A DNA stretch of 56,206 bases from a virus (taxonomy: Duplodnaviria; Caudoviricetes), in IMG/VR virus record IMGVR_UViG_3300030107_003883, positions 1 to 56,206 of that record; one strand, 5' to 3'. A program made the translations under genes and the position numbers. Of the stretch, positions 20,086 through 42,035 are shown one piece after another (the first letter of the stretch is position 1; each line of letters opens with the position of its first letter). The notes below the pieces were generated by a model. It was not told the origin of the DNA. It was given only the letters and a program-made list of their open reading frames with translations, and searched no databases.

Positions 20086-23000
20086 ATGAGTGATAATATA
20101 AGAAAGCAAGCAGAATATTGGGGGCAACAACAGTCGCCTGACTTAAACTTTTTAAAGCAAAAATATAAAGATATGCAACCCTGGCAAGTTAAAGCTAGGG
20201 ATCCTCAAGCTTATAAAGCATTATATGAACAAGCAGCACCTGGTCCAACAGGTATAGCGGACTCTAATCCTGTAACAGATTTCCTTGGAAATATGGCATG
20301 GGCTGTAGGTGAAGAGATGACATTAGGAGCTTCACTAGGTATTGATTTATATGCAGGCGGAGAAGTAAGGGAAACATTAGGCGTTCAAGAATGGGCTGAT
20401 AACTCATGGGCTGGTAGACTTGGTCAAATAGCTGGTCAAGGTGTAGGTTTTATATCTGGTGTAGGACTTATAGGAAAAGGACTAGGAAAAGCTAGTGGTG
20501 CATTAAACTTAGGTCGTAAAGCATTATCTAAAGGAGCTGGTAAAAAGCTTAGATCTGAAACTGGAGAGACTTTAAATAAGATAGTAGGCGATGTAGATGA
20601 TGCAGTAATGAGAGACTTTTCTGAAGAACTATATCAGACAGGTGCAGTTGCTATTAAAACAGGTCAAGAAGCTGCTAAAGCTTTTGGAAGAACTGCCACC
20701 AAGGTAGATCCTTTCAGCAACTTTGACTTACAAGGGGAAATTAGTAAAAACTTTGATGAACTATTACTAGAAAATATTAAGAAGAATAAAAACCTTGGGG
20801 ATAATGTACGTCAGAATCTCTTAGATCCAGCAAATAAGGAGCTTAGAGACGAGATTAGAGATAATAGTATAAAAGCTGCACAAGAATTTAGATCTGAAGA
20901 TGTGCCACGTGTTTTGGCTGCTAAATGGAGTGGTGTTCTAGGTGATCACGGAGCTCAGGTTGCTGGAGATATGGCTTACGAAGCTACTCTTCTTGGTTTA
21001 CATGGTGGATTAAGGAACTTAGTTGAAAGGGGAGTGTCTGCAGGACTAGATATAGATGATGAAAACTATGGAAGAAGGTCTTTCTTTAGTGACGTAATGC
21101 ATGGTATGATAGTTGGTGGAATGTTAGCACCTACTAGATATATACCTGGAGGAGCTAGAGTAGAGGTAGACTTAAGTAAGGGCCTTGGAGGTGTTAGGTC
21201 TGGTGTATTAGCTAATGTAAAGCAAATGGGACAGTCTGTTATACGTAAATACAATGGCAAAAAAGCTACAGATTATACCCCTAAACAGCTACAAACTATG
21301 ATGCGTAATGTTTGGTATGGTTCTAATAAAAACACAGAGTTTTTCAGAGGTATAGAGGGCTGGACTCCTAGACTAGTAGAAGATGTAGGTATGTTAGCTA
21401 ATGCTACTAATGTTAAAGTATTGCAAAATGTATATAATAAAGTCTCTAGAGATCTATCTAAAAACCTTATACCTATGTTAAGAAGAGAAGTTGCTAGAGA
21501 TTTATTTGAATCTGCTCCTAGATATGTAGTAGGCTCAGCTGTTATGAATGCTCAGAACTGGTATCAGAACTATGATCATATCACTGCAGATCAGTTTATA
21601 ACAGATGCTGTAGTTGGTATGTTTTATATGAAAAGAGGTAAAGTATTAAGTGGAAAGCCACCACTTCCTAAGTTTTTAACTTCCAGTGATATTAAAGGTA
21701 ATGAAATAGCTAAAATGTCACAAGCATTTGATGTATTAGGCTATGATAAGACTCAGCTTGATTTTATGGGTAGTGCTTGGGATAAAGTATATGCAGATCA
21801 TATGTTAGGAGAAAGCATTATTCAGCGTGGTAAGGATACTATGCCTGATATACGTAATGCTAATGCTATACTTGAAAAAGATATGGTTCCTGCTACTGAC
21901 TATGTTCAGATGCTTAAAGATCCTACTTTAAAAAACTTTAACGAACAAATATCCTTAGAGTATACACAAAGATTATCAATGGCTAGTGATCTTAGGGCCC
22001 AAGGAAGAGAAGCTGAAGCTAGAAGAATGGAACTTAGTGCTAATGATTTATTAGCTAAGTCAGATATAGCTCAAATGCTAGTTAATGATCTTAACTTTGG
22101 AATGGTTGACAAGAATGTACAACCTATGACTAAAGATGCTGCTATAGAATTTATAAATAGAATGAGCAGTATAGAGCTTAATGGTAAAAAGTTAACTATA
22201 GATAATGTATCTGCTGAAATACAAAAGCTTCGTAAAGCTGCTGCATATAAGACTACATCTCAAATACAGTTAGCTATGGAAGACTATATTAAAAACTCTT
22301 TAGACGCTTTTGGCTTATGGGATGTATCAATGGAAAGTGCTGGAACTATAAACATCCACCCTAGCACTAAAGACTTGTTATTAAAGAAGTTAGCTAGTAA
22401 TGAAAAGCTTGGAGAATACTCTACAGCTATCATGGCATTACATGATGTATTAGAAATGGCTAGCAGAACAGGCGTTATAAGATTTACTGATACTGCTATG
22501 GCTTGGAAAGCAGAAGGTGGACAAAAGCTAACAGCAGAAAAGTTAAATAGAATAGCTGATGAGTATAAAATCAATACAGAAAGAATGCATGATCTTGTTA
22601 TGGGTACAGAAAATAGTGGATGGAGAGACCTTGTAACAAATAAAAGAACTAGTGAAGCTTTTATGGATGATCATATACTAGCTTCTACACCTATATGGCA
22701 TGCAATAGATGCTAATATGAAGCACTTACGTAATGATATAGGGCTACATATACTAACAGGTAAAGGTGGACAAGGAACAGAGCAAACTATAGCCTTACAT
22801 CAAGAGATAATGAATGACTTATTTAAAGGTAAGCGTAAGATTATATTGTCTGAAGAAGCAGGAGAAAGAACTTTAACTGATAAGCCACATCTTATTAATG
22901 TGTTAAATAACCTTAACAGGTCATGGCAGCTAACAGAAGGTGTTGGTAAGAGAGGTGTAACAGAGATACGCTCTAGTCAGTTAGAGGCTATACATGAAAA

Positions 23001-26000
23001 GCTTTCAAGAGAAGTAGGTAATGTATTTAGTGACAACAATGCATTCCAGGCTTTTAAAAACTATTTAGATAATACATATATAGACAATATACTAGGTGGT
23101 AGCGCTTCATATGGTGCTAAGAAAGCATTATCAAGTCTTATACAGGAAGGAAATCCTTTAGCTTTCACTGATCCAGTCACTAATAAACGTGTTATAGCTT
23201 CTGGTGAGGCTATTAGAACAGCTATATTAGGTTCTGAATATGGTATTGAAATGCAAAGAATGAACCCTGAGTTTGCAAGTGAAGTAAGAACTATGGTTGA
23301 TAGGTATATAAAAGAGATTGAAAGACCTGTTAAAGGCAAAGGAGACTACTTAGAATTTAGTGATAAGATTACAATAGATCAAACATCTCAGCATAACCCT
23401 AAAGACTGGATGCAATCCTTACTATCTATGGAAGCATTATTAGATGGTAGTAAAGTAGTTGATATATCTAGAGTTGTAAAGAATGTACATCTACTAGAGT
23501 CTATGAACAGTTCTTTTAATACAGCTGCACACTTTGAAAAACTAGCTCAAGTTGCAGATAATAAAATTACAGTAGAACAGCTCAGGGCTGCAATGGATGG
23601 GCTTAGAACTAATACTAGACAGTTATCTTATTTAGTTACTGATGCTATGCAGAATGGTGATTTCTTAATGATACGTCAATTAGTAGATGCTCAATATGAT
23701 ATACAGAGAGCTATAGATAGAGCTAAACAGTTTACTGCAGAGGGTAAAGGTAGTATAGAAGAAGTTAGCTCTACTATATATAAAGTAACTATGGAAGCTA
23801 TAAATGAGCGTAATAGAAAGCTTTCTTTAGATAGTGTAGAATCTGTAGATGAGTTTATTAGACGTCAAGAAGAGGTAGTCACACGTCAAGACAGGTCAGG
23901 TAAGCCTGTATTAGAGAGTCAAACTATATCTGAGAGTCAGTATAAAAGTAAGTATGGTATAGATCAGACATCTTTAGACCTTATTAAAGGGGATATGGTT
24001 GCATTTAGCAACACTGCACATGACCTGGCAGCAGAGGTTAGCAGTTTTATGAACAATTTCCCTGGCGTCAAGCAAAGACCTGATGCTATGAGAACTGTAT
24101 TAGAAAATTTAGAAAACTTAGGCATACCTGCTGATGCCTATATGTCTCAAATAGTAAAGCCATGGATAGAAACTCAATGGACTAAAGCAAAAGCCTTAGA
24201 TGATAAGCTTAATCGTGATACATTCTTGACTGATACTGCTCAACTACTAGTTAGTGCTTGGGCTCAAAAGAAAGTCACTCTAGGGAACTTTGAGAACGGA
24301 GCATTAAGACTATCAACCAAGTCAGTTACTAACTGGGATGCAGGATTCTTAGGCCTTATTAACTCTTTAGGCATACAGAATAAGCCTAACTCATTTATGA
24401 TAATGGGAGAGCAGTCAATAGCTGGTAATCGTACTGTTAATAAACTTAGCGAAACAATGATGCAAGAGATTAATGCTAAGTTGGCAGCGGGAGCTAATAT
24501 AAAAGTAGAAAGATCAGAGCTATTCTCTGCTAATGAACGTGCTGAATTGGAAAAAATGCTAAAAGATATGCCTATAGTTGGTGAAGGTGCTGATGGCAGG
24601 GCTCAATTCCAAGCATTCAGGCTAGATGAAAAGCAAGCTATTATATTATCTACTAGTACATATCCAGATATAGTTAATAGATGGCGTTCTAAAGGCGAAG
24701 GTTCATTGTTTAACGAGCTTTCTAAAGTTGTTGGAGAGACAGCAGCTAAGAACTATTTAGAGAAGTCTTTAAAGTTAAATGAGTTTAAGAATGATCAGAT
24801 AGATACTCAGAAGTTTACTACTGAAACTATAGAAGGTTTACTTTTAACTACAAGACTATTAAAAGATAATGCATTTTACTTAGATAAGCTGGTTAAAGGT
24901 GAAATGACTAGAGAAGAAGTGTTTAAAGCATTAAAGTACTTAAAGCTATCTAACCCAAGAGGTGGTATTACTTTAAATAAAAAGACTGTAGATATAATGA
25001 GGTACTTTACTAAAGAAATAATGCCTGATACACCTCAGTATAAAGATATAAAAAGACATTTTGAAGGGCAAATGAGTAGACCTCACAGGCAAGTTACATT
25101 GTTTGATGAAAAGGGCCCTAATGAGAACTTCTTTAATAGTGATGCAGAGTATAGAGCAAAGGTTAGAGATCAGTATGTAAATGAAAGAGGCTTTAGTGTA
25201 GAAGAAGCTACTAAGATAGCTAATGAGTTGGCAGATAAACTTGCACCTGAAGCTAAGTCTAAAGTAGATGGTGAACAATATTTAAGTTTACCAGAAATGA
25301 CAGCATTATTAACCTCTAGAGGGGCTGATGCCAGTTGGTTTGTATTTGATGCTAATAATAATGTAGTTGGCTTTAACACTATTATTAAGCCTGTTGTATC
25401 TCAAAGTAAGGTTAATCCTGATGGCTCTATGTCTGTAGTTATAAACAAGACAGCTTTCAAGTATGATCCTACTATGGATGCAGCTATGAAGAATGCTGAT
25501 GGTACATATTTTACAGATAGTATAGCATTTAAATCTGCTAGTAAAGTAAACCAAAGTAAAGCGTCTGCAGAAAGTCCTTGGGTTGAAAATGCAATACCTG
25601 TACAGACACCTACAGATGTCACTAAACCATGGAAGCCTCAAGTTGCATTAGATATTCAAAACCAGAATACAGCTGGAAGTAATATGAGAATAGCAAGTGT
25701 AGACAGGGCTAATATGATGCTTAAGTCTATTAGTGGTCCTCATGATGGCACATTAAGTATGGCTTTTGGTAACTTCTTATCTAATCCAGCACAAGATGTA
25801 ATGAACTCTTGGTTAAAATCTACTAATGCAGTTAAAGATTTAAGTCAGCACATGCAAGACCTATATCAGAATCCATTTGCTTTTAAAGCTATAGCTGAAA
25901 AGCTTAAAGGATTTGATAAAGAGACTGGAGATATAACAGCTAGTCTTACAGGTTTAGAGGCAGTATTATCCGAAGGTGGTATACCTATATATGAACACTT

Positions 26001-29000
26001 GAGACCTCAAATAGAGAGAGCATTAGTTGGTAACTATTTAGGCTCTAGAAACTTTGCATCAGGCAATATAGAAAATGGTGCATATAATGTTATGACTGCA
26101 GCAGACGGACTTAGTCTTCCAGTAAGAGAGAATGGCATGCAATCAAGATTTGGTGGTAGCGGTATACCTCATGCAGAGTCTAATAAAAATATTAGAACAA
26201 TGTTAAGAGATCCAGGTGGTACTGAAAGCGTATCTCTTATATTTAGAATAACAGAGTCTCAAGCTAATGCATTAAATAAGGCTTTTAAAGCTAAGTCTGA
26301 GGTTAAAACAGATATATTTAAAGCAGGTGATGAACTTATAGCATCTGGCGATGGTTCAGTATCAGGTACATTTGATGGCATGTTAAATAGAATCTATGGC
26401 TCTAACCTTGAAGGCTCTTACGGTCCAGGACGTAGAAATGCTATAATGGATAGACAAATATCATCTGAGATTGTTCAAGACCTTATAGGTAAGAACTATA
26501 AAGACATTATACAGGAAGCATTTGAGTTAAAGCATTCAGATGGAGCTGATAAAATACAGACTTTAGGTGAACTTGTAAGGTTTGTAGATGGTAAGCCTCT
26601 TAGCGCTGTTGAACGTCAAAATGAAAAGACATACTTTGAAGACTATACTATCACTGATGGAACAGGTTCAATGGCACAAAAACATGGCTATCAATCTGTT
26701 CGTGTTGCTGATGTAAACTTAAGAACTCCTAAGGATGGTATTAATAGTTGGGTTATAACTGGTATAGAAAAGCTTATAGACAGGCGTAAAGGTGCCGTAA
26801 GCGAAATGAACAGTCAAGACCTTATTAATCCTCAGGATGCTGACTTTGATTTAGATAAATCAGCAAGCTTCTTTGGAACACCAGGGCCTATCTTAAAAGA
26901 AATACATGCTGCATCAGGATACCATGAGATATCGTCAGAAAGAATATGGGATAAAGCATTAACTGAAGTTAGTTATGAAATGCCACAGATGAGCTCATAT
27001 ATAAATGAGTTAAAGAACTTAGAGTCTGCTAGGCCAGTAGTTGTTAGACAGCATTCTTTAACATCTTTAATGTATCAGTACTTTACATCTTTAGATGGAC
27101 TAGCTCAAAAGAATCTTATTAGACCTGGCTATGAAACAGGTATACATAGAGATAAATATGGCGTAGACAGAGTATCTCAAAGTACCCCAGGTACTAACGT
27201 TGTAATAGATTTTCAAGCTCCAAGTAATAGAACTAAATATCAGATAGCATTTAGACATGGTGGAGAGTTTGTTGACGCTATAGGGCATATGAAGAAAGTT
27301 ATTAAGCATACTATAGATACTTACGGTGATCTTACTAAGCTTAACGATAGAAATATGATGGAAGAGTTTTGGTTCAATGATAACTTTGGACTGTTTAAAG
27401 TTGTAGAAACAGAAGGCTTTAATGCTGGTAGAGAAGTTGGCTGGAACAATTCAGTTGCTGAGATAGCACAGTTTAAAAAACAGATTAAAGATGGGTTCTT
27501 GAATCCTATGAACAAGATCTTTAATCTAGGCCTAGGCGTTGAAACATTAAGTGATGGTACAAGTAGAAAGCTTGGCTTTTATGACTATGTATCTACCTTT
27601 GAAAGAGCTAGGTCAGACATGTCACGTACTGCTGAGTTTAATAAAGAGTTAAAACCTTTTATTGATAACTTTTTAGGGTTCTTAGGTGAGCGTCCAGGCG
27701 CTGCAGGTACTAGTAATCATCCTTTAGTTGATGGTCTTATTAAAATGACTGAAGCTCATAATAAAAACTTTCCTATGCGTATAGAGCGTGGCAATGAGCT
27801 AGGCAATATGCTTAACGGAGCTGCAGTAGATGTTAAGAGTGTTGAAGTTCAAAATGCTATCAATAAGTATATGCAGAACGAAAAGAATTGGGTTCGCTTT
27901 AGCTCATTACAATGGGAAGTAAATCAGCTAGAGAATACATTAAATGACATGCGTGCACGTAGGCAGGACAAGACTAGGCAGTATGAAAATATGGAAAAGC
28001 GTAAGCAAATGTTAACTGAAACATTAGGCCAGGTAGAAGTAATAGCTAATGATAAATTTGTTAGAGAGTCTACTCCAAGAAGAAGGTCAGGTCAAATGGC
28101 AGAAGCTGATGCTAACTATGCAGTATATAAAGTAAGAAATGGTGATGTTAAAAGCGTAACAAGAATTAGTAAAGGAGATAGGTTCTTTTGGAATGCTGGT
28201 GATGTTGTTGTAAAGAATCCTAGAACATTTAGATTCACTGATCCTATACAGCAAAAGCATTTACGCACAATGCATAGAGCCTTTGGTAATTTACTAACAG
28301 GAGTTGAAAAGTTTGATGTTGCAGACAGCAGAGGATATGTCAGGAGTAAGATAAATGATATTAAGCAAGAGTTTTATAATATAGACACACAGTTCTCTGA
28401 TGCATCTGTTAGAAACAACAGTATGTATAAAGATATATATAGCACAAAATTAGAAGCTCTAAAAACTTCGTTTAACGACATAATGATAGCAAGGGGACCT
28501 CAGTATGCTAAGCAGTTTTTACATACGTTATTGACCCCAAGAGTGTCCAATTCTGAGATGTCTATACTAGGTTATGATAATAAGAATGAGTCTTATTACT
28601 CAGGCTTTAGATTTCAGAGTAATAAATCTAGTGAACAGATGGTTATGAGGTTCATGACCGCGGCTATGGATGGTAAAGTATCAGGATTTAATAAAGCTTT
28701 AGCAAAAGAATGGTTTGCAGAAATAGAACAAGCTCGTAAAATAGCCTACCTGATGACACATGATAAATCATTAAGTGGTGATGCATTTAAGATAGGAAAT
28801 CTAGACAGAGGTCTTAATCCTAGCTTTGATGTGTTACCTAGAACAGATGCTAAGCCTAAGTTATTAGATGTCAAGGCTAATAATGAACAGGCTCGTAAAA
28901 CTATACAATCATATCTTACAGGGTCATACTTTTTAGATCCTATAGAACTGTATAGATTAACAGTAGGTCTAGATAAGACAATGAATGAAATGCCTAGCCC

Positions 29001-29205
29001 TCAGTTGATGGGTGATCGTGTTAAAAATCTATGGACTGATGTAGGTAAGAACTCAAATACTATAGAAGTTAAAGAAGATCTAGGTAGGGCAGTATATAGA
29101 ATGTCTAAAGTACCTATTGAGAATAGTATGAATGGCAACAGAGAACATATAAGACGTAAAACATTTTCAGAGAAGCTCTGGGAAGAGATGAACTGTAATA
29201 ATTAA
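20086..29205 (+). CDS. Giant virion protein with two-barrel (double-psi beta-barrel) RNA polymerase domain; putative virion RNAP
   Basis: DADFDLD at aa 2251-2257 (26836-26856) preceded by R2213-T-P; upstream VDGEQYLS (D1728), K1768-P, K1788 and DSIAFKSASKV (K1820), in the order seen in crAss-like virion RNAPs and QDE-1-type polymerases. Confidence 0.8.
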   Translation: MSDNIRKQAEYWGQQQSPDLNFLKQKYKDMQPWQVKARDPQAYKALYEQAAPGPTGIADSNPVTDFLGNMAWAVGEEMTLGASLGIDLYAGGEVRETLGVQEWADNSWAGRLGQIAGQGVGFISGVGLIGKGLGKASGALNLGRKALSKGAGKKLRSETGETLNKIVGDVDDAVMRDFSEELYQTGAVAIKTGQEAAKAFGRTATKVDPFSNFDLQGEISKNFDELLLENIKKNKNLGDNVRQNLLDPANKELRDEIRDNSIKAAQEFRSEDVPRVLAAKWSGVLGDHGAQVAGDMAYEATLLGLHGGLRNLVERGVSAGLDIDDENYGRRSFFSDVMHGMIVGGMLAPTRYIPGGARVEVDLSKGLGGVRSGVLANVKQMGQSVIRKYNGKKATDYTPKQLQTMMRNVWYGSNKNTEFFRGIEGWTPRLVEDVGMLANATNVKVLQNVYNKVSRDLSKNLIPMLRREVARDLFESAPRYVVGSAVMNAQNWYQNYDHITADQFITDAVVGMFYMKRGKVLSGKPPLPKFLTSSDIKGNEIAKMSQAFDVLGYDKTQLDFMGSAWDKVYADHMLGESIIQRGKDTMPDIRNANAILEKDMVPATDYVQMLKDPTLKNFNEQISLEYTQRLSMASDLRAQGREAEARRMELSANDLLAKSDIAQMLVNDLNFGMVDKNVQPMTKDAAIEFINRMSSIELNGKKLTIDNVSAEIQKLRKAAAYKTTSQIQLAMEDYIKNSLDAFGLWDVSMESAGTINIHPSTKDLLLKKLASNEKLGEYSTAIMALHDVLEMASRTGVIRFTDTAMAWKAEGGQKLTAEKLNRIADEYKINTERMHDLVMGTENSGWRDLVTNKRTSEAFMDDHILASTPIWHAIDANMKHLRNDIGLHILTGKGGQGTEQTIALHQEIMNDLFKGKRKIILSEEAGERTLTDKPHLINVLNNLNRSWQLTEGVGKRGVTEIRSSQLEAIHEKLSREVGNVFSDNNAFQAFKNYLDNTYIDNILGGSASYGAKKALSSLIQEGNPLAFTDPVTNKRVIASGEAIRTAILGSEYGIEMQRMNPEFASEVRTMVDRYIKEIERPVKGKGDYLEFSDKITIDQTSQHNPKDWMQSLLSMEALLDGSKVVDISRVVKNVHLLESMNSSFNTAAHFEKLAQVADNKITVEQLRAAMDGLRTNTRQLSYLVTDAMQNGDFLMIRQLVDAQYDIQRAIDRAKQFTAEGKGSIEEVSSTIYKVTMEAINERNRKLSLDSVESVDEFIRRQEEVVTRQDRSGKPVLESQTISESQYKSKYGIDQTSLDLIKGDMVAFSNTAHDLAAEVSSFMNNFPGVKQRPDAMRTVLENLENLGIPADAYMSQIVKPWIETQWTKAKALDDKLNRDTFLTDTAQLLVSAWAQKKVTLGNFENGALRLSTKSVTNWDAGFLGLINSLGIQNKPNSFMIMGEQSIAGNRTVNKLSETMMQEINAKLAAGANIKVERSELFSANERAELEKMLKDMPIVGEGADGRAQFQAFRLDEKQAIILSTSTYPDIVNRWRSKGEGSLFNELSKVVGETAAKNYLEKSLKLNEFKNDQIDTQKFTTETIEGLLLTTRLLKDNAFYLDKLVKGEMTREEVFKALKYLKLSNPRGGITLNKKTVDIMRYFTKEIMPDTPQYKDIKRHFEGQMSRPHRQVTLFDEKGPNENFFNSDAEYRAKVRDQYVNERGFSVEEATKIANELADKLAPEAKSKVDGEQYLSLPEMTALLTSRGADASWFVFDANNNVVGFNTIIKPVVSQSKVNPDGSMSVVINKTAFKYDPTMDAAMKNADGTYFTDSIAFKSASKVNQSKASAESPWVENAIPVQTPTDVTKPWKPQVALDIQNQNTAGSNMRIASVDRANMMLKSISGPHDGTLSMAFGNFLSNPAQDVMNSWLKSTNAVKDLSQHMQDLYQNPFAFKAIAEKLKGFDKETGDITASLTGLEAVLSEGGIPIYEHLRPQIERALVGNYLGSRNFASGNIENGAYNVMTAADGLSLPVRENGMQSRFGGSGIPHAESNKNIRTMLRDPGGTESVSLIFRITESQANALNKAFKAKSEVKTDIFKAGDELIASGDGSVSGTFDGMLNRIYGSNLEGSYGPGRRNAIMDRQISSEIVQDLIGKNYKDIIQEAFELKHSDGADKIQTLGELVRFVDGKPLSAVERQNEKTYFEDYTITDGTGSMAQKHGYQSVRVADVNLRTPKDGINSWVITGIEKLIDRRKGAVSEMNSQDLINPQDADFDLDKSASFFGTPGPILKEIHAASGYHEISSERIWDKALTEVSYEMPQMSSYINELKNLESARPVVVRQHSLTSLMYQYFTSLDGLAQKNLIRPGYETGIHRDKYGVDRVSQSTPGTNVVIDFQAPSNRTKYQIAFRHGGEFVDAIGHMKKVIKHTIDTYGDLTKLNDRNMMEEFWFNDNFGLFKVVETEGFNAGREVGWNNSVAEIAQFKKQIKDGFLNPMNKIFNLGLGVETLSDGTSRKLGFYDYVSTFERARSDMSRTAEFNKELKPFIDNFLGFLGERPGAAGTSNHPLVDGLIKMTEAHNKNFPMRIERGNELGNMLNGAAVDVKSVEVQNAINKYMQNEKNWVRFSSLQWEVNQLENTLNDMRARRQDKTRQYENMEKRKQMLTETLGQVEVIANDKFVRESTPRRRSGQMAEADANYAVYKVRNGDVKSVTRISKGDRFFWNAGDVVVKNPRTFRFTDPIQQKHLRTMHRAFGNLLTGVEKFDVADSRGYVRSKINDIKQEFYNIDTQFSDASVRNNSMYKDIYSTKLEALKTSFNDIMIARGPQYAKQFLHTLLTPRVSNSEMSILGYDNKNESYYSGFRFQSNKSSEQMVMRFMTAAMDGKVSGFNKALAKEWFAEIEQARKIAYLMTHDKSLSGDAFKIGNLDRGLNPSFDVLPRTDAKPKLLDVKANNEQARKTIQSYLTGSYFLDPIELYRLTVGLDKTMNEMPSPQLMGDRVKNLWTDVGKNSNTIEVKEDLGRAVYRMSKVPIENSMNGNREHIRRKTFSEKLWEEMNCNN

Positions 29206-37822: not shown

Positions 37823-38476
37823 TCATATCTTTCTTAGCATCATAGTAGGAAAATGAAAGCTAAAGTTACTATTAAACGGTTCATCGGTTATGAACTTGCG
37901 AACGGAATTAGCAATAAAGCTTCCACTCATATTTGAGCAGTAACTTGTTGCTTTAGCGTTGCAAGGCTCCTCATCCCCTTGTTCATCAGAGTACCAATGT
38001 TTTTTATATTCAGCAAGTGTTGGCTTTTTGAATATATATTGTTGATAGTGTTCAGCTCCCATTCTCCCGTCTATGATGCATTTTGGCTTAGTCGTAGGGT
38101 TAGAGCATATTGTAGTGACCGCTTCCAACCTTGACCCCATCGAATCAAACCCTAGTATGACTATGTCATTATGATCCTGGAAATAGAATGTATCAAAGTC
38201 ACCATGATGAGTATCTATTACAAGTTCTCGACTTATATTTAATAAATGGCTCTTCAAAGCATTAACTTTGTTACTGCCAATATCTCCTTGAGTATACTGA
38301 GATACTCCGATATTAACATCTTCTACTATATCACGATCATATAGATGAAAATATAGTCCACCCATACGTGCCAATTGAGTGGCTGCGGCACTCCCGATAG
38401 CACCGCAACCTAGTATATGAAATGTGTAGTCATATACCCCTGTGAATAATCCTTCATTTCTTGCTGTTAAGCTCAT
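37823..38476 (-). CDS. E1/ThiF-family ubiquitin-like activating enzyme (start likely 38476)
   Basis: ILGCGAIGS, YDRDIVEDVN, KVNAL, GFDS and DGRMG motifs; candidate catalytic Cys in EEPCNAKAT; ATGA overlap with the JAB gene. Confidence 0.92.
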   Translation of the reverse strand: MSLTARNEGLFTGVYDYTFHILGCGAIGSAAATQLARMGGLYFHLYDRDIVEDVNIGVSQYTQGDIGSNKVNALKSHLLNISRELVIDTHHGDFDTFYFQDHNDIVILGFDSMGSRLEAVTTICSNPTTKPKCIIDGRMGAEHYQQYIFKKPTLAEYKKHWYSDEQGDEEPCNAKATSYCSNMSGSFIANSVRKFITDEPFNSNFSFHFPTMMLRKI

Positions 38477-39384
38477 ACTCCATACCCCCATCCTATACCA
38501 GCTTGATCTAATGTGTCGCCTGTTTGCTTATTTACAACAAAGTCTGATGGCATAGCATGTAATAAAGATTCAAGAGCATTTTCTACTACAAGAGTTACTT
38601 CATATATACTTTTACTATCTACAAGCTCTTTATTTAAATCATCTATTGACATTTTATAAGCTGCATAAGTCATTGATCCTGCTACTACTTCAGATATAAC
38701 CTCGTCAACTTCTTCAAGGATTTCGAAATATGTCTTTGGCTTACCAGACAAGCCTGTCTGACCAGCTGTGGTATGAAAAGGGAGTCGCTCTTGGCGAGGG
38801 TCCTCCGCAGCTTCTTTAAGCAGATCAGTATGATTTCCATTATTCTTTCTCCATGAATAACCTGTATATGTAGGAACTTTATATTCAGGCTTAGTACACA
38901 TTGCTGCTACATTCTCTTTAATCTTTTTGCTTATACGTGCTTTAGGATTAATTATAGTTAGATCAACATCTTCATGTACTTCTACAGGCTTCCATACAGA
39001 TACTCTAAACTTATATTCTTCCTTAAGGTTAACAACTAAGGCAAATGAGAAATCTCCTTGATCATATTCTTTTATAGCTGTTAAATCTGTGCCAGACCAG
39101 AATGCGTTCATTGTATGATGACTATGCCACCAACAAAATCTAAAGTTCTTTTTACCCAATCTTTTAGCCTCTTTAGTATAATATATAGCTAGCTCATCTT
39201 TATCAAGTACAGTATTCCCAGCGCTTATAACTTGCTTAAGTATTACAGGGTTTTCTAAATGCCAATCACCATCTTTATCTTCTACCATTACAGACATTCC
39301 ACCTATTTCAGATTGATGCTCTGTATGGGCTTCTTCTGCGTATCCCAGGATAGTATCCCAGTCTTTCTGTTTTATGTAAAACAT
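38473..39384 (-). CDS. JAB/JAMM (MPN+) metalloisopeptidase
   Basis: Complete JAMM motif E26...H87-x-H89-x7-S97-x2-D100. Confidence 0.9.
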   Translation of the reverse strand: MFYIKQKDWDTILGYAEEAHTEHQSEIGGMSVMVEDKDGDWHLENPVILKQVISAGNTVLDKDELAIYYTKEAKRLGKKNFRFCWWHSHHTMNAFWSGTDLTAIKEYDQGDFSFALVVNLKEEYKFRVSVWKPVEVHEDVDLTIINPKARISKKIKENVAAMCTKPEYKVPTYTGYSWRKNNGNHTDLLKEAAEDPRQERLPFHTTAGQTGLSGKPKTYFEILEEVDEVISEVVAGSMTYAAYKMSIDDLNKELVDSKSIYEVTLVVENALESLLHAMPSDFVVNKQTGDTLDQAGIGWGYGV

Positions 39385-39535: not shown

Positions 39536-41548
39536 CTATAAGTTATTTGCACTACCATTTCTAATAGCCCATTGAATAGTTCTTTCTTCTATTGTCATTT
39601 CTGCTTCAGGTGTTGTTGTTTGAACAGGTGTACGAGGAACAGATGTCGCAAAAGGATCATCATCTATTAAAGTATCCAAAGGGTCAAATGGAGTTCGATC
39701 TAATATATCATTAGCTTCTTGCTCTATTTGATTTATTTGATCTTGAGTTAGCTCAGGATTATCAGGTACAGGTGGAAGTTCAACGTTATAACCTATTACA
39801 TTCTCTCTATTCCATTCAAAATCACTTGTAAGATCTAAGTATACATTTTCATAGAAATGTTCAAAGTTAACAATAGGCATATTGCAAAGATTTCTTAGCT
39901 TTCTTCTATAAGTAGGTGTATCTTCTAATTCACCACCTGGCTCTCTACCTTCTTTAGCAAGCCATCTTATAATAACCCTATGCATTCTGATATAGTTATT
40001 ATATGAATCAAATATTCGCTCTCTAGTACGTGGAGTTGTCCATAAGCTATCTTCAATAGAATCTATATAGACATCATTCTCAGTAGACAGTATATTATCT
40101 TTAATAGAAAGTTCTAGCATTATACCAAGAATACCTTCTTCTTCAGGTGTCTTATCATCCTTTAATGTAAGAGATATGTTATTATACTGCTCACAATTAG
40201 TGTTAAAAGTACACTTTGCACATGGAAGATTAGCATCAGTTATATGATTATAATATTCTAATTTTCTATTTAAATATTCTTCAGCACCTATAGTATAACT
40301 ATTAGTATTGCTTATACGATAGCTATGATAAAATACATTTCTAGCATGATCATGTGCTTCATCAAATAACTTGCGACTTAAGTTACAACTTAACAATGTA
40401 TTATAAGTATAATTGCCATTTCCTTCAAAGAATGTTCTATATACAATATCATTATCACCTGATTCTGTTAAGAATGTATCAAATACTATGTTTCTGCCAT
40501 GAGACTTACTATAACTTATCCTATTTAAAGGATTAGTTTGAGGTACATAATAGTTTGTAGCCCATCCTACAAGAGTAGTTATATGTGCTAATATATCTAC
40601 ATTCATAATAGAAGCCCTTATTGCATTTTTCATACTGCCAAGACATACATTACCAGATTTTACATCATCACCAGCATAGTATCTATATTTATCATCACCT
40701 TGACTTATATATGGATGTCTATTTAGTCCAAAAGAATCTAAATATAAAGCTTCTAAGAAATGAGTTGCATTACTAGGAGGTGCAGCTTGCAAGAACTCTT
40801 CTCTTCCCCAATGTCTACTTATCAATGGTAATAAGAATACTCCTGATGCAATATATACGTCACCTATAGTATGGTTAAATCTTTTAGTTTCATTTCCTAT
40901 TATTATATGAGTACGCATATTTGCATTCTTTATTTTTACCATAAATAATACAATATAATCCCTTGTTTCAGATACATCACTAGGACCTATAAAATGAGCA
41001 TTGCCTCCATAGCTATATTGTCTTCTTAACATAGCTTTATTAGCACAAGTTTCCATTACTCTACATTGTATTTCTACATGAGGATACATCTCTTTAGCTA
41101 CCTCTAACTGACTGATAATACTAGACTTAACCTTGTCAAACTCTTCTTCAAATTGATCTGTATTATCCTGCCATTTGATGCCGTTAGACTTTAAGTCCTT
41201 TAGTTTATATTCAAGGCTTAACAAGCTTGATTTAAAACCAGACTCTCTCCATCTATAGTCTTGTATTCTTTTAAAGATAGACTCTACACCTCTTGGCTTC
41301 ATATCGTGCCTTAATACATGTTCGTTATAGGCTCTTTTTATTTCATTATAACCACCAGGTTTTAGAGTAAAGCTTTTAGATACACCTAAATTACAGTTAT
41401 ATCTTTCTTTTAATGTTTCTAAAGCCTCAATAATTTCTCCTTGAGGTCCTACAAGTATATTATCAATCAACTCAGACACATTACATTCAAATGTTTCTAT
41501 GTCCACAGAGTTTGCTTCTATCATTTTAAAATTCATTGTTGTCTCCAA
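39536..41548 (-). CDS. Large multidomain protein with a prokaryotic E2 (ubiquitin-conjugating)-like core
   Basis: H278-P-Y-I-S...G-N-V-C302-L-G followed by two helices; located between Ubl and JAB. Confidence 0.65.
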   Translation of the reverse strand: METTMNFKMIEANSVDIETFECNVSELIDNILVGPQGEIIEALETLKERYNCNLGVSKSFTLKPGGYNEIKRAYNEHVLRHDMKPRGVESIFKRIQDYRWRESGFKSSLLSLEYKLKDLKSNGIKWQDNTDQFEEEFDKVKSSIISQLEVAKEMYPHVEIQCRVMETCANKAMLRRQYSYGGNAHFIGPSDVSETRDYIVLFMVKIKNANMRTHIIIGNETKRFNHTIGDVYIASGVFLLPLISRHWGREEFLQAAPPSNATHFLEALYLDSFGLNRHPYISQGDDKYRYYAGDDVKSGNVCLGSMKNAIRASIMNVDILAHITTLVGWATNYYVPQTNPLNRISYSKSHGRNIVFDTFLTESGDNDIVYRTFFEGNGNYTYNTLLSCNLSRKLFDEAHDHARNVFYHSYRISNTNSYTIGAEEYLNRKLEYYNHITDANLPCAKCTFNTNCEQYNNISLTLKDDKTPEEEGILGIMLELSIKDNILSTENDVYIDSIEDSLWTTPRTRERIFDSYNNYIRMHRVIIRWLAKEGREPGGELEDTPTYRRKLRNLCNMPIVNFEHFYENVYLDLTSDFEWNRENVIGYNVELPPVPDNPELTQDQINQIEQEANDILDRTPFDPLDTLIDDDPFATSVPRTPVQTTTPEAEMTIEERTIQWAIRNGSANNL

Positions 41549-41645
41549 GTTATAATGGGGTAAAATATTACAATTCAGTTAGGCTTGCATAAAAGGAGCT
41601 TTATCCCGAGCATTGACCACCTTACCCCATAATTGTTATAATATC

Positions 41646-41852
41646 TTACTGACCACCAGTCTTATTACTATTTACATTAGCAACAATGTCCCCATCTTGC
41701 AATTGATAGTCATCTGACTGATCTGTTGCATTTACAGCTACACTTGACCCAGCAGGCATATCAAGTTCAGTTCTTAATGAGCCTATAGTTTGACTAGTTA
41801 CTACTTTTTCAACGAATCCACCGCCACTAAGTACTTTTATTGTTATTGACAT
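41646..41852 (-). CDS. Ubiquitin-like beta-grasp protein with capped C-terminus (...KTGG-Q)
   Basis: 68 aa; ITIKVL...TIGSLRTEL...VAVN...YQLQDGDIV...GGQ; AAGGAGG RBS. Confidence 0.85.
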   Translation of the reverse strand: MSITIKVLSGGGFVEKVVTSQTIGSLRTELDMPAGSSVAVNATDQSDDYQLQDGDIVANVNSNKTGGQ

Positions 41853-42035
41853 TTAAGCCTCCTTATTGATTGTTTCTTTATTACGAAGCGCTTTCCATGC
41901 ACTCTTAGGCATATATTTCGCTTCCTGTTTATTTACTACCTTCTCAGCGTCTTCATCACGTACCCGCAGCAATGTACCTACAGGTAATCGCTTCCAATAC
42001 TGTGAATTTTCTACTACAGTTTTAATTGTTTTCAT
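41853..42035 (-). CDS. Hypothetical protein
   Basis: GGAGG RBS; LRVRDEDAEKVV...YMPKSAWK. Confidence 0.65.
   Translation of the reverse strand: MKTIKTVVENSQYWKRLPVGTLLRVRDEDAEKVVNKQEAKYMPKSAWKALRNKETINKEA

What the first reader, a model, noticed from the sequence alone, without database searches (positions are those of the whole stretch)
41646..41657. Ubl diglycine is masked by a single Gln, implying JAB-dependent maturation
Seen: GGT GGT CAG TAA gives ...G-G-Q-stop. Known: E1 enzymes adenylate a free C-terminal Gly, and JAB peptidases remove C-terminal extensions from Ubl precursors. Inference: the neighbouring JAB must clip the Gln first, which functionally couples the four genes and provides a control point.
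Basis: partly seen in the sequence, partly recalled or inferred. Interest (0 to 1): 0.7.

Follow-up and report, generated by a model that had tools for sequence, protein, structure and literature searches.

The report
Phage ubiquitin-like protein with capped tail
An uncultured marine phage carries a small ubiquitin-like protein whose reactive Gly-Gly end is capped by one glutamine, next to genes for the trimming peptidase and the activating enzyme; trimming of this kind is already known in bacteria.

Summary
The minus-strand ORF 41646-41852 (68 aa) ends ...KTGG-Q-stop. GG is invariant in 14 of 14 database homologues and in 58 of 58 complete viral homologues. None ends at GG; the tails run from 1 to 60 residues (28 distinct tails in the two sets).

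The gene belongs to a conserved cassette:
- a ThiS-like Ubl;
- a 670-aa protein with a probable UBC/E2-like core and an invariant Cys302;
- a JAB peptidase with an intact JAMM motif;
- a 222-aa ThiF-type E1.

All 33 of 33 related loci with at least 4.5 kb downstream of the Ubl hold all four genes. A complex prediction places Ubl residues 56-68 against the JAB catalytic residues (0.87 against 0.00 in controls).

JAB-dependent unmasking before E1 adenylation is therefore the best reading. It is not new chemistry: BilC removes a single residue from BilA, and BubCD cleaves BubAB.

What looks new is the setting. The cassette sits in the replication module of a roughly 55-kb uncultured phage lineage and is nearly absent from cellular genomes. 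Its target is unknown, and the E2 assignment is only moderately supported.

The parts
41646..41852 (-). Pro-Ubl, 68 aa, ThiS/MoaD-like beta-grasp. Gly66-Gly67 are at 41652-41657, the capping Gln68 at 41649-41651 and the stop at 41646-41648.
   Evidence: ORF and translation. Pfam ThiS E 0.0058, below the cut-off. 6 of 15 family members hit ThiS, best 9.4e-5, and no other family is hit. Atlas neighbours carry ThiS on 25% and 12% of members. GG is invariant with variable tails.
39536..41548 (-). 670-aa protein (TTG start; an ATG five codons in, at 41536, is the likelier start). It has an N-terminal helical domain, a central probable UBC/E2-like core (residues 152-358 = 40475-41095) with invariant Cys302 (40643-40645), and a C-terminal helical region with nearly invariant C388, C443, C446 and C452.
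   Evidence: No Pfam, PHROG, PADLOC or NCBIfam match. 184 homologues. Conserved columns. AF2 pLDDT 85.2 for the whole protein and 74.7 for the core. VIA-align list rich in E2 entries at low Z. Atlas lead to Prok-E2_D.
38473..39384 (-). JAB/JAMM metallopeptidase, 303 aa. The catalytic domain spans about residues 1-140. E26; the H87-S-H89-x7-S97-x2-D100 motif lies at 39085-39126. The C-terminal half is variable.
   Evidence: Pfam Prok-JAB 6.7e-5, 23.2 bits against a cut-off of 25. PADLOC JAB models 1e-3 to 6e-3. Motif residues invariant in 21 of 21. Predicted complex with the Ubl.
37823..38491 (-). Minimal E1-like adenylating enzyme, 222 aa, ThiF family. Its start overlaps the end of the JAB gene by 19 nt.
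   Evidence: Pfam ThiF 2.3e-16, 60.1 bits, above the cut-off. NCBIfam ThiF 4e-17. PADLOC Cap2 E1-E2 models to 5.7e-13. PDB sequence hits include UBA5, MccB and Cap2. Invariant G28-x-G30-x-x-G33, D52, D54, K75, D116, R121, C177 and C185.
41853..42035 (-). 60-aa ORF abutting the Ubl start codon. It is conserved only in the closest relatives, and its membership of the system is uncertain.
   Evidence: tblastn hits in L001-L003, L005-L008, L014, L015 and L017 only. No family match.

Best explanation
The 68-aa protein is a precursor ubiquitin-like protein (pro-Ubl) of a phage-encoded Ubl activation and conjugation cassette. The proposed steps are as follows. (1) The JAB/JAMM metallopeptidase encoded two genes downstream binds the beta-grasp body and cuts the Gly67-Gln68 peptide bond, releasing Gln and exposing the Gly67 carboxylate. 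(2) The 222-aa ThiF-type E1, probably a homodimer of the UBA5/MoeB kind, adenylates Gly67 with ATP and may form a thioester on C177 or C185. (3) The Ubl passes to Cys302 of the UBC/E2-like core of the 670-aa protein. (4) From there it is attached to a target that is not identified. The JAB may also reverse conjugates. What is shown by sequence and comparison: the GG-X architecture, intact catalytic motifs, and strict four-gene linkage. What is supported only by models: JAB-Ubl docking with the tail in the active site, and a UBC-like fold for the 670-aa protein. What is inferred from established enzymology: that E1 needs a free terminal Gly, the order of the steps, thioester transfer, and the existence of a protein target.
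For: GGQ-stop at the stated place. GG is invariant and always capped: 14 of 14 and 58 of 58 complete viral homologues, with tails of 1-60 aa, 20 distinct, whose first residue is C, K, D, E, T, A, Q, I, L or Y (V also occurs in the set). One further homologue carries about 96 extra residues after GG. Hypervariable tails beside an invariant GG are what is expected of a removed propeptide. JAB: E26, H87, H89, S97 and D100 are invariant in 21 of 21. E1: ThiF 2.3e-16, with conserved nucleotide-loop and Asp/Lys/Arg/Cys positions in 20 of 20. Linkage: of the 59 loci, all 33 with at least 4.5 kb downstream of the Ubl contain the E2-like domain (HMM of A6), JAB and E1. JAB and E1 genes abut or overlap. 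Predicted complex of JAB(1-170) with the Ubl: ipSAE 0.87 (runs 0.88, 0.87, 0.87) against a best control of 0.00. That mark was reached by 58 of 80 solved complexes and 2 of 110 mismatched pairs. The runs agree in at least 96% of contacts and the partner's pLDDT is at least 91. The interface includes JAB residues 26, 28, 85, 87, 89 and 97-100 and Ubl residues 56-68. E2-like core: invariant P279, C302, G304, W329, T338 and P340 within [HFY]-P-[YF]-[IV]-S ... C-x-G ... W. 21 of the 50 listed VIA-align rows are entries that name an E2 enzyme, aligned over about 101-116 residues. Atlas neighbour cluster with Prok-E2_D on 15% of members, score 0.90. Precedents read in passages: BilC cleaves BilA between Gly97 and Ala98, removing one residue; BubCD cleaves BubAB just after the conserved Gly.
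Against: There is no biochemical evidence. The complex prediction may pass from memory of solved JAB-Ub/Ubl complexes, and my own alignments were used, so the calibration holds only roughly. Family scores for the Ubl (17.6 against 22.5 bits) and the JAB (23.2 against 25 bits) are below Pfam's cut-offs. The Ubl profile finds nothing significant among PDB sequences; the best relevant hit is MoaD at E 0.87, and the Ubl fold was not compared with structures. The E2 assignment is weak. There is no Pfam match for the protein or for any of 29 core segments. There is no PF14460 match in the six-frame phage, no PDB profile hit and no Foldseek PDB hit at E <= 0.001. The best VIA Z is only 4.6, within the range the tool calls common. 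It was not checked residue by residue that Cys302 sits at the E2 catalytic position. The His of the HPx motif is F or Y in many homologues. No target is known.
Confidence: 0.75

Rival explanations
1. The protein is a sulfur carrier, not a protein modifier. It would be a ThiS/MoaD-type carrier: JAB unmasks GG, E1 adenylates it, and host sulfur donors convert it to a thiocarboxylate that feeds a thiolation reaction on a nucleotide, cofactor or metabolite. The 670-aa protein would be the sulfur-using enzyme rather than an E2. The first reader's maturation step would still hold.
For: ThiS is the only family the Ubl hits. The E1's best named matches are ThiF/MoeB equivalogs. JAB + ThiS-like + E1 sets without a recognisable E2 are a known sulfur-transfer theme (Iyer et al. 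2006, passages; QbsE/QbsD and CysO/Mec+ are recalled, not read here). The 670-aa protein has conserved cysteines C388, C443, C446 and C452 that could bind metal. GenBank annotators call the phage E1 relatives 'thiamine biosynthesis protein'.
Against: There is no rhodanese, cysteine desulfurase, ThiG, MoaE, PP-loop or other sulfur-pathway family among the 8 proteins scanned or the 35 other ORFs scanned at E <= 0.001. The E1 is a bare adenylation domain of 222 aa. The central domain of the 670-aa protein draws E2/UEV/RWD entries rather than sulfur enzymes.
Confidence: 0.12
2. The JAB is mainly or only a deconjugating isopeptidase, and the one-residue cap is removed by a host carboxypeptidase or is tolerated by the E1. 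The GG-X terminus would then not make maturation JAB-dependent.
For: A single C-terminal residue is an easy target for cellular carboxypeptidases (general knowledge). In type II CBASS and Bil the JAB also cleaves conjugates (passages).
Against: Homologues carry tails of 6-60 residues, and one a fused domain of about 96 residues. These need an endopeptidase cutting exactly after GG, and the same JAB family is always present. The model places the tail in the JAB active site.
Confidence: 0.08
3. The biological role could be defence rather than pro-viral. The cassette would be a Bil-like anti-phage (superinfection-exclusion) system carried by the phage, tagging structural proteins of competing phages.
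For: All characterised bacterial Ubl-conjugation operons (type II CBASS, Bil, and probably Bub) act in anti-phage immunity (passages). The E1 matches PADLOC Cap2 models.
Against: The cassette is a fixed part of the replication module, between early small ORFs and the Sak4, primase-helicase genes. It is present in every sufficiently long relative: 33 of 33. This is unlike sporadically distributed defence cargo. It is almost absent from 185,579 bacterial and archaeal species genomes: 1 locus, on a 3.9-kb MAG contig. There are no PADLOC matches for the Ubl or the 670-aa protein.
Confidence: 0.15

Closest known systems
Type II Bil (BilABCD) bacterial ubiquitination system (Chambers et al., preprint 10.1101/2023.09.26.559546; passages read)
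   Same: It has the same four functions: Ubl, E2, JAB peptidase and E1. The cognate JAB (BilC) pre-processes the Ubl by cutting after the reactive Gly and removing one residue (Gly97|Ala98), which is the operation proposed here for Gly67|Gln68. E1 and E2 are cysteine-based.
   Different: Bil is a bacterial anti-phage operon; this cassette is in a phage replication module. BilD is a large E1 with inactive and active adenylation domains and a mobile CYS domain (passage); here the E1 is 222 aa with a single domain. The Bil Ubl of Hor et al. has two ubiquitin-like domains (passage); here there is one ThiS-like domain of 67 residues. The E2-like core here sits inside a 670-aa protein with no family match. 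No PADLOC model matched the Ubl or the 670-aa protein.
Type I Bub (BubAB/BubCD/BubE) (preprint PMC11601596; passages read)
   Same: A JAB is coupled directly to a minimal homodimeric UBA5-like E1 (fused in BubCD; adjacent and overlapping genes here). The JAB cleaves a pre-protein immediately after the conserved Gly to create the Ubl. Some homologues here also carry long C-terminal extensions.
   Different: Bub E1 and E2 lack catalytic cysteines, and the E2 uses serine. Here C177/C185 (E1) and C302 (E2-like) are invariant. No DUF6527/BubE-type family appeared among the 43 window ORFs scanned. Bub is bacterial.
ThiS-ThiF / MoaD-MoeB sulfur-carrier pairs and their JAB-containing variants (Iyer et al. 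2006, PMC1779556, passages; QbsE/QbsD and CysO/Mec+ recalled only)
   Same: The Ubl and E1 are closest in sequence to these families. Iyer et al. predicted that JAB peptidases release a free C-terminal Gly from extended or fused ThiS/MoaD-like proteins.
   Different: No sulfur-pathway partner is visible in the phage. A probable E2-like protein with an invariant Cys is always linked.
Type II CBASS Cap2/Cap3
   Same: The E1 domain's best defence-library matches are Cap2 E1-E2 models (5.7e-13), with Cap2 chains among the PDB hits. A JAB partner is present.
   Different: CBASS has no separate Ubl (the cyclase C-terminus is conjugated; passage and recall). E1 and E2 are fused there. No cyclase or effector is present here.
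Lambda/T1 tail-assembly TAPI (Ubl) and TAPK (JAB + NlpC/P60) (Iyer et al. 2006, passages)
   Same: A phage-encoded Ubl with a conserved C-terminal Gly beside a JAB that is predicted to cut after that Gly.
   Different: That pair lies in the tail module and has no E1 or E2. This cassette lies in the replication module and has both.

Membership tests
ThiS/MoaD-type ubiquitin-like beta-grasp (Pfam PF02597) | Sequence match to the family model above the curated cut-off | tested here: inconclusive
   E 0.0058, 17.6 bits against a cut-off of 22.5. 6 of 15 homologues match at E <= 0.01, best 9.4e-5, and it is the only family hit. Atlas neighbours carry ThiS on 25% and 12% of members. The PDB profile search is not significant.
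ThiS/MoaD-type ubiquitin-like beta-grasp (Pfam PF02597) | Conserved C-terminal Gly-Gly used for adenylation | tested here: met
   G66-G67 are invariant in 14 of 14 and 58 of 58 homologues, but always followed by a tail.
ThiS/MoaD-type ubiquitin-like beta-grasp (Pfam PF02597) | Beta-grasp fold | not tested
The complex run gave the Ubl pLDDT 92 but no fold comparison. The Atlas holds no model.
JAB/JAMM metallopeptidase | E ... H-x-H-x7-S-x2-D zinc and catalytic motif (motif recalled) | tested here: met
   E26, H87, H89, S97 and D100 are invariant in 21 of 21. Prok-JAB 6.7e-5, just under the cut-off.
JAB/JAMM metallopeptidase | Cleaves after the Ubl C-terminal Gly | not testable with these tools
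   There is only a model: ipSAE 0.87 against a control of 0.00, with the tail at the catalytic residues.
E1-like adenylating enzyme (ThiF family, PF00899) | Family match above the cut-off, with the nucleotide-binding Gly loop and Asp/Arg/Lys positions conserved | tested here: met
   60.1 bits against a cut-off of 28.1. G28, G30, G33, D52, D54, K75, D116 and R121 are invariant in 20 of 20. The roles of these residues are assigned from recall of ThiF/MoeB.
E1-like adenylating enzyme (ThiF family, PF00899) | Catalytic cysteine for a thioester (true E1s) | tested here: inconclusive
   C177 and C185 are invariant, but their structural position was not examined.
UBC/E2 fold (including the Pfam Prok-E2 families) | Sequence match to an E2 family model | tested here: not met
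   No Pfam hit for the protein or for 29 core segments. PF14460 is absent in six frames. The PDB profile search is empty. The only sequence-based lead is an Atlas neighbour with Prok-E2_D on 15% of members.
UBC/E2 fold (including the Pfam Prok-E2 families) | UBC-like fold | tested here: inconclusive
   Core model pLDDT 74.7. VIA-align best Z is 4.6; 21 of the 50 rows are entries naming an E2 (Z 3.1-4.5, 96-116 aligned, rmsd 3.5-4.3), plus UEV and RWD rows. Foldseek PDB finds nothing at E <= 0.001.
UBC/E2 fold (including the Pfam Prok-E2 families) | Invariant catalytic Cys downstream of an HPN-like motif | tested here: inconclusive
   C302 is invariant, 22 residues after [HFY]-P-[YF]. Equivalence to the E2 catalytic position was not checked by superposition.
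Bil (BilABCD) system | Ubl + E2 + JAB + a large IAD-AAD-CYS E1, in bacterial defence context | tested here: not met
   The gene set is analogous, but the E1 is a 222-aa single domain, the context is a phage replication module, and no Bil-type PADLOC match was found for the Ubl or the E2-like protein. It works like Bil but is not filed as a member.
Bub (6E/DUF6527) system | DUF6527/BubE protease; cysteine-less E1 and E2 | tested here: not met
   No such family appeared among the 43 scanned ORFs. The cysteines are invariant.

The most novel reading that the evidence does not exclude
A lineage of lytic-type marine phages carries its own complete ubiquitin-like conjugation pathway (pro-Ubl, E2-like, JAB, minimal E1) as a core replication-module function, and uses it for the virus rather than against viruses. 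It could tag host or phage proteins early in infection to take over the cell or to blunt host immunity. More distantly, crAss-like and Flavobacterium phages share the JAB-E1 pair, so the pathway may extend to them. This would be the first viral-side Ubl conjugation system in prokaryotes, with an E2 family and a minimal E1 that current family libraries do not recognise.
Probability: 0.35. Interest if true: 0.8.

Novelty: new variant of a known kind. Interest (0 to 1): 0.55.

Why it matters
Every prokaryotic Ubl-conjugation operon characterised so far (type II CBASS, Bil, Bub) is read as host defence against phages. A complete cassette fixed in the core genome of a phage lineage would show that viruses of bacteria also use ubiquitin-like tagging, as many eukaryotic viruses use or hijack ubiquitin. 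The cassette is nearly absent from cellular genomes, and part of it (JAB-E1) is shared with crAss-like gut phages.

The masked GG terminus gives a simple entry point. A one-residue mass shift reports JAB activity. The invariant Lys64 would leave a Thr-Gly-Gly remnant on targets after trypsin, which makes target discovery by proteomics feasible.

The maturation step itself is established chemistry, so the original finding taken alone is of modest interest.

Tried and rejected
- blastn of the cassette against GenBank phages gave no match.
- tblastn of the Ubl (E <= 1) and the JAB (E <= 1e-3) against the same collection gave no match. No cultured phage is shown to carry the full cassette.
- A single-protein pattern scan for the 670-aa protein in viral contigs found nothing. 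This was a limit of the method: the alignment-based scan with the Ubl found 59 loci.
- For the whole 670-aa model, Foldseek PDB gave a best E of 0.11 at TM 0.07 (noise). VIA-align matched only a helical hairpin, residues 33-125, at Z <= 5.9, which is uninformative.
- hhalign of the E2-like core profile against crAss001 gp78 (probability 0.2) and Fpv1 gp57 (probability 0.3) showed no demonstrable homology.
- BFVD Foldseek with the core model gave six unnamed viral proteins at E <= 1.4e-6. Weak rows included a crAss-like virus protein (E 0.016) and a 435-aa protein of phage cr128_1 (E 0.24). The latter has the same length as the ORF just upstream of that phage's JAB-E1 pair. This is a lead, not a result.
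- The lipoyl-domain resemblance of DGDIVA-V---K (E 0.15) was rejected. It is not significant, and the Lys lies four residues from the C-terminus rather than in a mid-domain hairpin.
- The intergenic RNA structure between the Ubl and the 670-aa gene has z -0.95, not better than shuffles.
- Earlier findings of this scan: none for this genome.
- Literature searches for a phage-encoded Ubl/E1/E2/JAB system listed no paper describing this cassette. Only titles and abstract starts of those listings were seen. Supplementary tables, such as the operon lists of the Bil and Bub papers, could not be consulted and might include viral examples.

Full report
**Observation.** The + strand at 41646-41657 reads ttactgaccacc. 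On the minus strand this is GGT GGT CAG TAA. It closes a 68-aa ORF, 41646..41852 (-), that ends ...NSNKTGGQ. The window is a whole IMG/VR virus record of 56,206 bases, estimated complete. It encodes a large terminase, a P22-type portal and an SU10-type capsid protein. The large terminase is at most about 26% identical to that of any GenBank phage, so this is an uncultured, distant phage lineage.

**The gene and its terminus are conserved.** A word-indexed search found 14 homologues of 68-100 aa.
- In their alignment, K64, G66 and G67 are invariant, and every sequence continues past GG. The tails are Q (4 sequences), K, IV (3), VRV, LL, DQ (2), and tails of 12 and 34 residues.
- A scan of viral contigs with this alignment returned 59 loci. 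Reading each ORF to its stop, 58 of 58 with a complete end carry [ND]-K-x-G-G followed by 1-60 residues. None stops at GG. The 59th, L058, runs off its contig.
- The 58 loci show 20 distinct tails; many loci are near-duplicates (DQ occurs 28 times).
- The first tail residue can be C, K, D, E, T, A, Q, I, L or Y, plus V in the set.
- A search among longer proteins found one homologue with about 96 extra residues after GG.
- An invariant GG beside a tail that is free in length and sequence is the signature of a propeptide that is removed.

**The four genes.** Downstream on the same strand lie three more genes.
- A 670-aa ORF at 39536-41548. It has no Pfam, PHROG, PADLOC or NCBIfam match.
- A 303-aa JAB at 38473-39384. 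Prok-JAB scores 6.7e-5, 23.2 bits against a cut-off of 25.
- A 222-aa ThiF-family E1 at 37823-38491, scoring 2.3e-16, above the cut-off. Its start overlaps the end of the JAB gene.
- The Ubl itself hits only ThiS: E 0.0058, below the cut-off. Six of 15 homologues hit ThiS at up to 9.4e-5. Atlas neighbours carry ThiS on 25% and 12% of their members. Its profile finds nothing significant among PDB sequences, and its fold was not compared with structures.
- In 21 of 21 aligned JAB homologues, E26, H87, H89, S97 and D100 are invariant. This is the JAMM E...HxHx7Sx2D motif, recalled from memory.
- In 20 of 20 E1 homologues, the Gly-rich loop (G28, G30, G33), D52, D54, K75, D116, R121 and two cysteines (C177, C185) are invariant.
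- The E1's nearest solved relatives by sequence are an unnamed ThiF-type protein (9egc and related entries), UBA5, MccB and Cap2. These are minimal, single-domain E1-like enzymes.

**Linkage.** tblastn with the window's proteins, plus an HMM of the central domain of the 670-aa protein, was run over all 59 loci.
- The order is conserved: Ubl, zero to several small ORFs, the 670-aa homologue (408-690 aa), JAB, E1, then Sak4-like and other replication genes.
- All 33 of 33 loci with at least 4.5 kb downstream of the Ubl contain the central domain, JAB and E1.
- Among the 40 loci with at least 3 kb downstream, the counts are 39, 37 and 35. The misses are loci where the contig ends, or where inserted ORFs push the genes beyond the end.
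- A pattern scan of one genome for each of 185,579 bacterial and archaeal species with the JAB alignment found a single relative, on a 3.9-kb MAG contig. The cassette is essentially viral.

**Does the JAB take the Ubl tail?** The complex prediction used JAB residues 1-170 (21-row alignment) with the Ubl (15 rows).
- It scored 0.88, 0.87 and 0.87, against 0.00 for the best of three controls. That mark was reached by 58 of 80 solved complexes and 2 of 110 mismatched pairs.
- The runs agree in at least 96% of contacts, and the partner's pLDDT is at least 91.
- Confident contacts include JAB residues 26, 28, 85, 87, 89 and 97-100 and Ubl residues 56-68. The tail, with G66-G67-Q68, therefore lies on the catalytic residues.
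- The tool warns that such a pass can come from memory of solved complexes, and that my own alignments make its calibration only approximate. JAB-ubiquitin-type complexes are solved, so this shows likeness, not binding.

**The 670-aa protein.** An exhaustive phmmer search found 184 relatives at E <= 0.001.
- In a 95-row alignment, C302 and P340 are invariant. G304, W329, T338, N342, C388, C443, C446 and C452 are nearly so.
- AlphaFold2 gave a confident model: pLDDT 85.2, pTM 0.81.
- Around Cys302 the order of elements is a helix (169-178), a four-stranded meander (197-238), further strands, the motif [HFY]-P-[YF]-[IV]-S at 278-282, Cys302-x-Gly, then two helices (304-331). From recall, this resembles the UBC layout: helix, meander, HPN, catalytic Cys, helices.
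- Searches with the whole model were uninformative, and so was the profile against PDB sequences.
- Residues 152-358 folded alone (29-row alignment, pLDDT 74.7) gave no Foldseek PDB hit at E <= 0.001.
- In the exhaustive VIA-align search the best Z was only 4.6. Even so, 21 of the 50 listed rows are entries that name a ubiquitin, NEDD8 or SUMO E2, aligned over 96-116 residues. There are also UEV (Tsg101, Vps23) and RWD rows. The tool states that Z under 8 may reflect only a common arrangement, so I count this as suggestive enrichment, not proof.
- The Atlas feature search gave, at 0.90, a viral cluster in which 15% of members carry Prok-E2_D.
- Against the assignment: none of the 29 core segments hits any E2 family in Pfam, and PF14460 finds nothing in the phage's six frames.
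- I put the E2-like reading at roughly two in three.

**Mechanism.** E1-type enzymes adenylate a free C-terminal glycine carboxylate (established enzymology), so Gln68 must go first. The linked JAB is the obvious agent. Longer tails in relatives demand an endopeptidase that cuts exactly after GG.

Direct precedents were read in passages. BilC of Ensifer aridi cleaves BilA between Gly97 and Ala98, one residue from the end, before E1/E2-dependent conjugation. BubCD, a JAB-E1 fusion, cleaves the BubAB pre-protein just after its conserved Gly. Twelve BilA homologues have 2-9-residue overhangs. Iyer et al. predicted such processing for prokaryotic and phage Ubls in 2006.

The finding's mechanism is therefore well supported but not new. 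The 'control point' idea is untested.

**Rivals.** A sulfur-carrier role would keep the maturation step but replace conjugation.
- For it: the Ubl's and E1's ThiS/ThiF affinities.
- Against it: no sulfur-pathway family appears among the 8 + 35 ORFs scanned, and the linked protein is E2-like.
- A host peptidase could remove a single Gln, but not the long tails of relatives.
- A defence (superinfection-exclusion) role is possible, but it fits poorly with the cassette's fixed place in the replication module of every relative and its near absence from cellular genomes.

**Wider context.** The E1 alone has distant relatives (at most about 32% identity over most of its length) in 81 GenBank phage records, chiefly crAss-like Bacteroides phages and Flavobacterium psychrophilum phages, where it is annotated 'thiamine biosynthesis protein'.
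- In crAss001, cr128_1 and bajarodcaudo virus 1, a JAB-type metalloprotease gene lies immediately upstream of the E1, with a 433-444-aa ORF of unknown function before it. All sit in the replication module.
- Homology of that upstream ORF to the E2-like protein is not shown. Only weak BFVD rows hint at it.
- No Ubl homologue was detected in these phages by tblastn.

**Novelty and score.** The seven literature searches listed no description of a phage-encoded Ubl/E2/JAB/E1 cassette. I saw only listings for most papers and passages of four. Supplements were closed.

I rate this a new variant of a known kind. The chemistry is familiar. The carrier is unusual, the E1 is minimal, and the E2-like protein is not in current family libraries. 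Interest is 0.55: modest for the capped terminus itself, higher for the phage-borne pathway it points to.

Noticed in passing
window 38473-38520 (the JAB C-terminus) and the last block of alignment A3: JAB homologues end in a conserved aromatic-N-x-S-[YF]-G-(G) motif followed by 1-4 residues, for example ...YNQSYGGMWL. The window's copy ends ...GIGWGYGV. This is a second Gly-rich, capped C-terminus in the cassette. It could be a pseudo-substrate or a docking tail.
   Followed up: no
L027:7947-8384, L029 and P0165: In some relatives the Ubl continues past GG. Two loci carry a 60-residue helical-looking extension. One database protein carries about 96 residues with a precomputed Pfam domain (PF14273). 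These resemble ubiquitin-fusion precursors.
   Followed up: partly
L061 (crAss001 gp78-gp77-gp76), L065 (cr128_1) and L063 (bajarodcaudo virus 1): crAss-like phages carry a Prok-JAB metalloprotease gene directly upstream of a ThiF-type E1 (383 aa in crAss001, with an N-terminal extension of about 160 aa). A 433-444-aa unknown ORF lies before them, in the replication module. The E1 is annotated as thiamine biosynthesis. No Ubl was found by tblastn.
   Followed up: partly
L062:2668-4960 (Flavobacterium phage Fpv1 gp56, gp55, gp54): The annotated gp54 begins right at the JAMM HxH motif (hhalign probability 92.8 to the JAB profile). An opposite-strand endonuclease gene (gp55) sits just upstream. 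The JAB gene there may be interrupted or mis-started.
   Followed up: no
window 20086-29205 (+): A 3039-aa ORF with no Pfam match at E <= 0.001 lies in a phage with a P22-type portal and an SU10-type capsid. A Peptidase_S74 (endosialidase chaperone) domain occurs in one of the other ORFs.
   Followed up: no
window 39536-41548 (-), residues 388-452: Four nearly invariant cysteines (C388, C443, C446, C452) lie in the region after the E2-like core. They could form a zinc site (E3-like or structural).
   Followed up: no
window 41549-41645 (-): The 97-nt spacer between the Ubl and the 670-aa gene can form a long-range stem (GGGGUAA/UUACCCC). Its folding energy is not better than shuffles (z -0.95).
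   Followed up: yes
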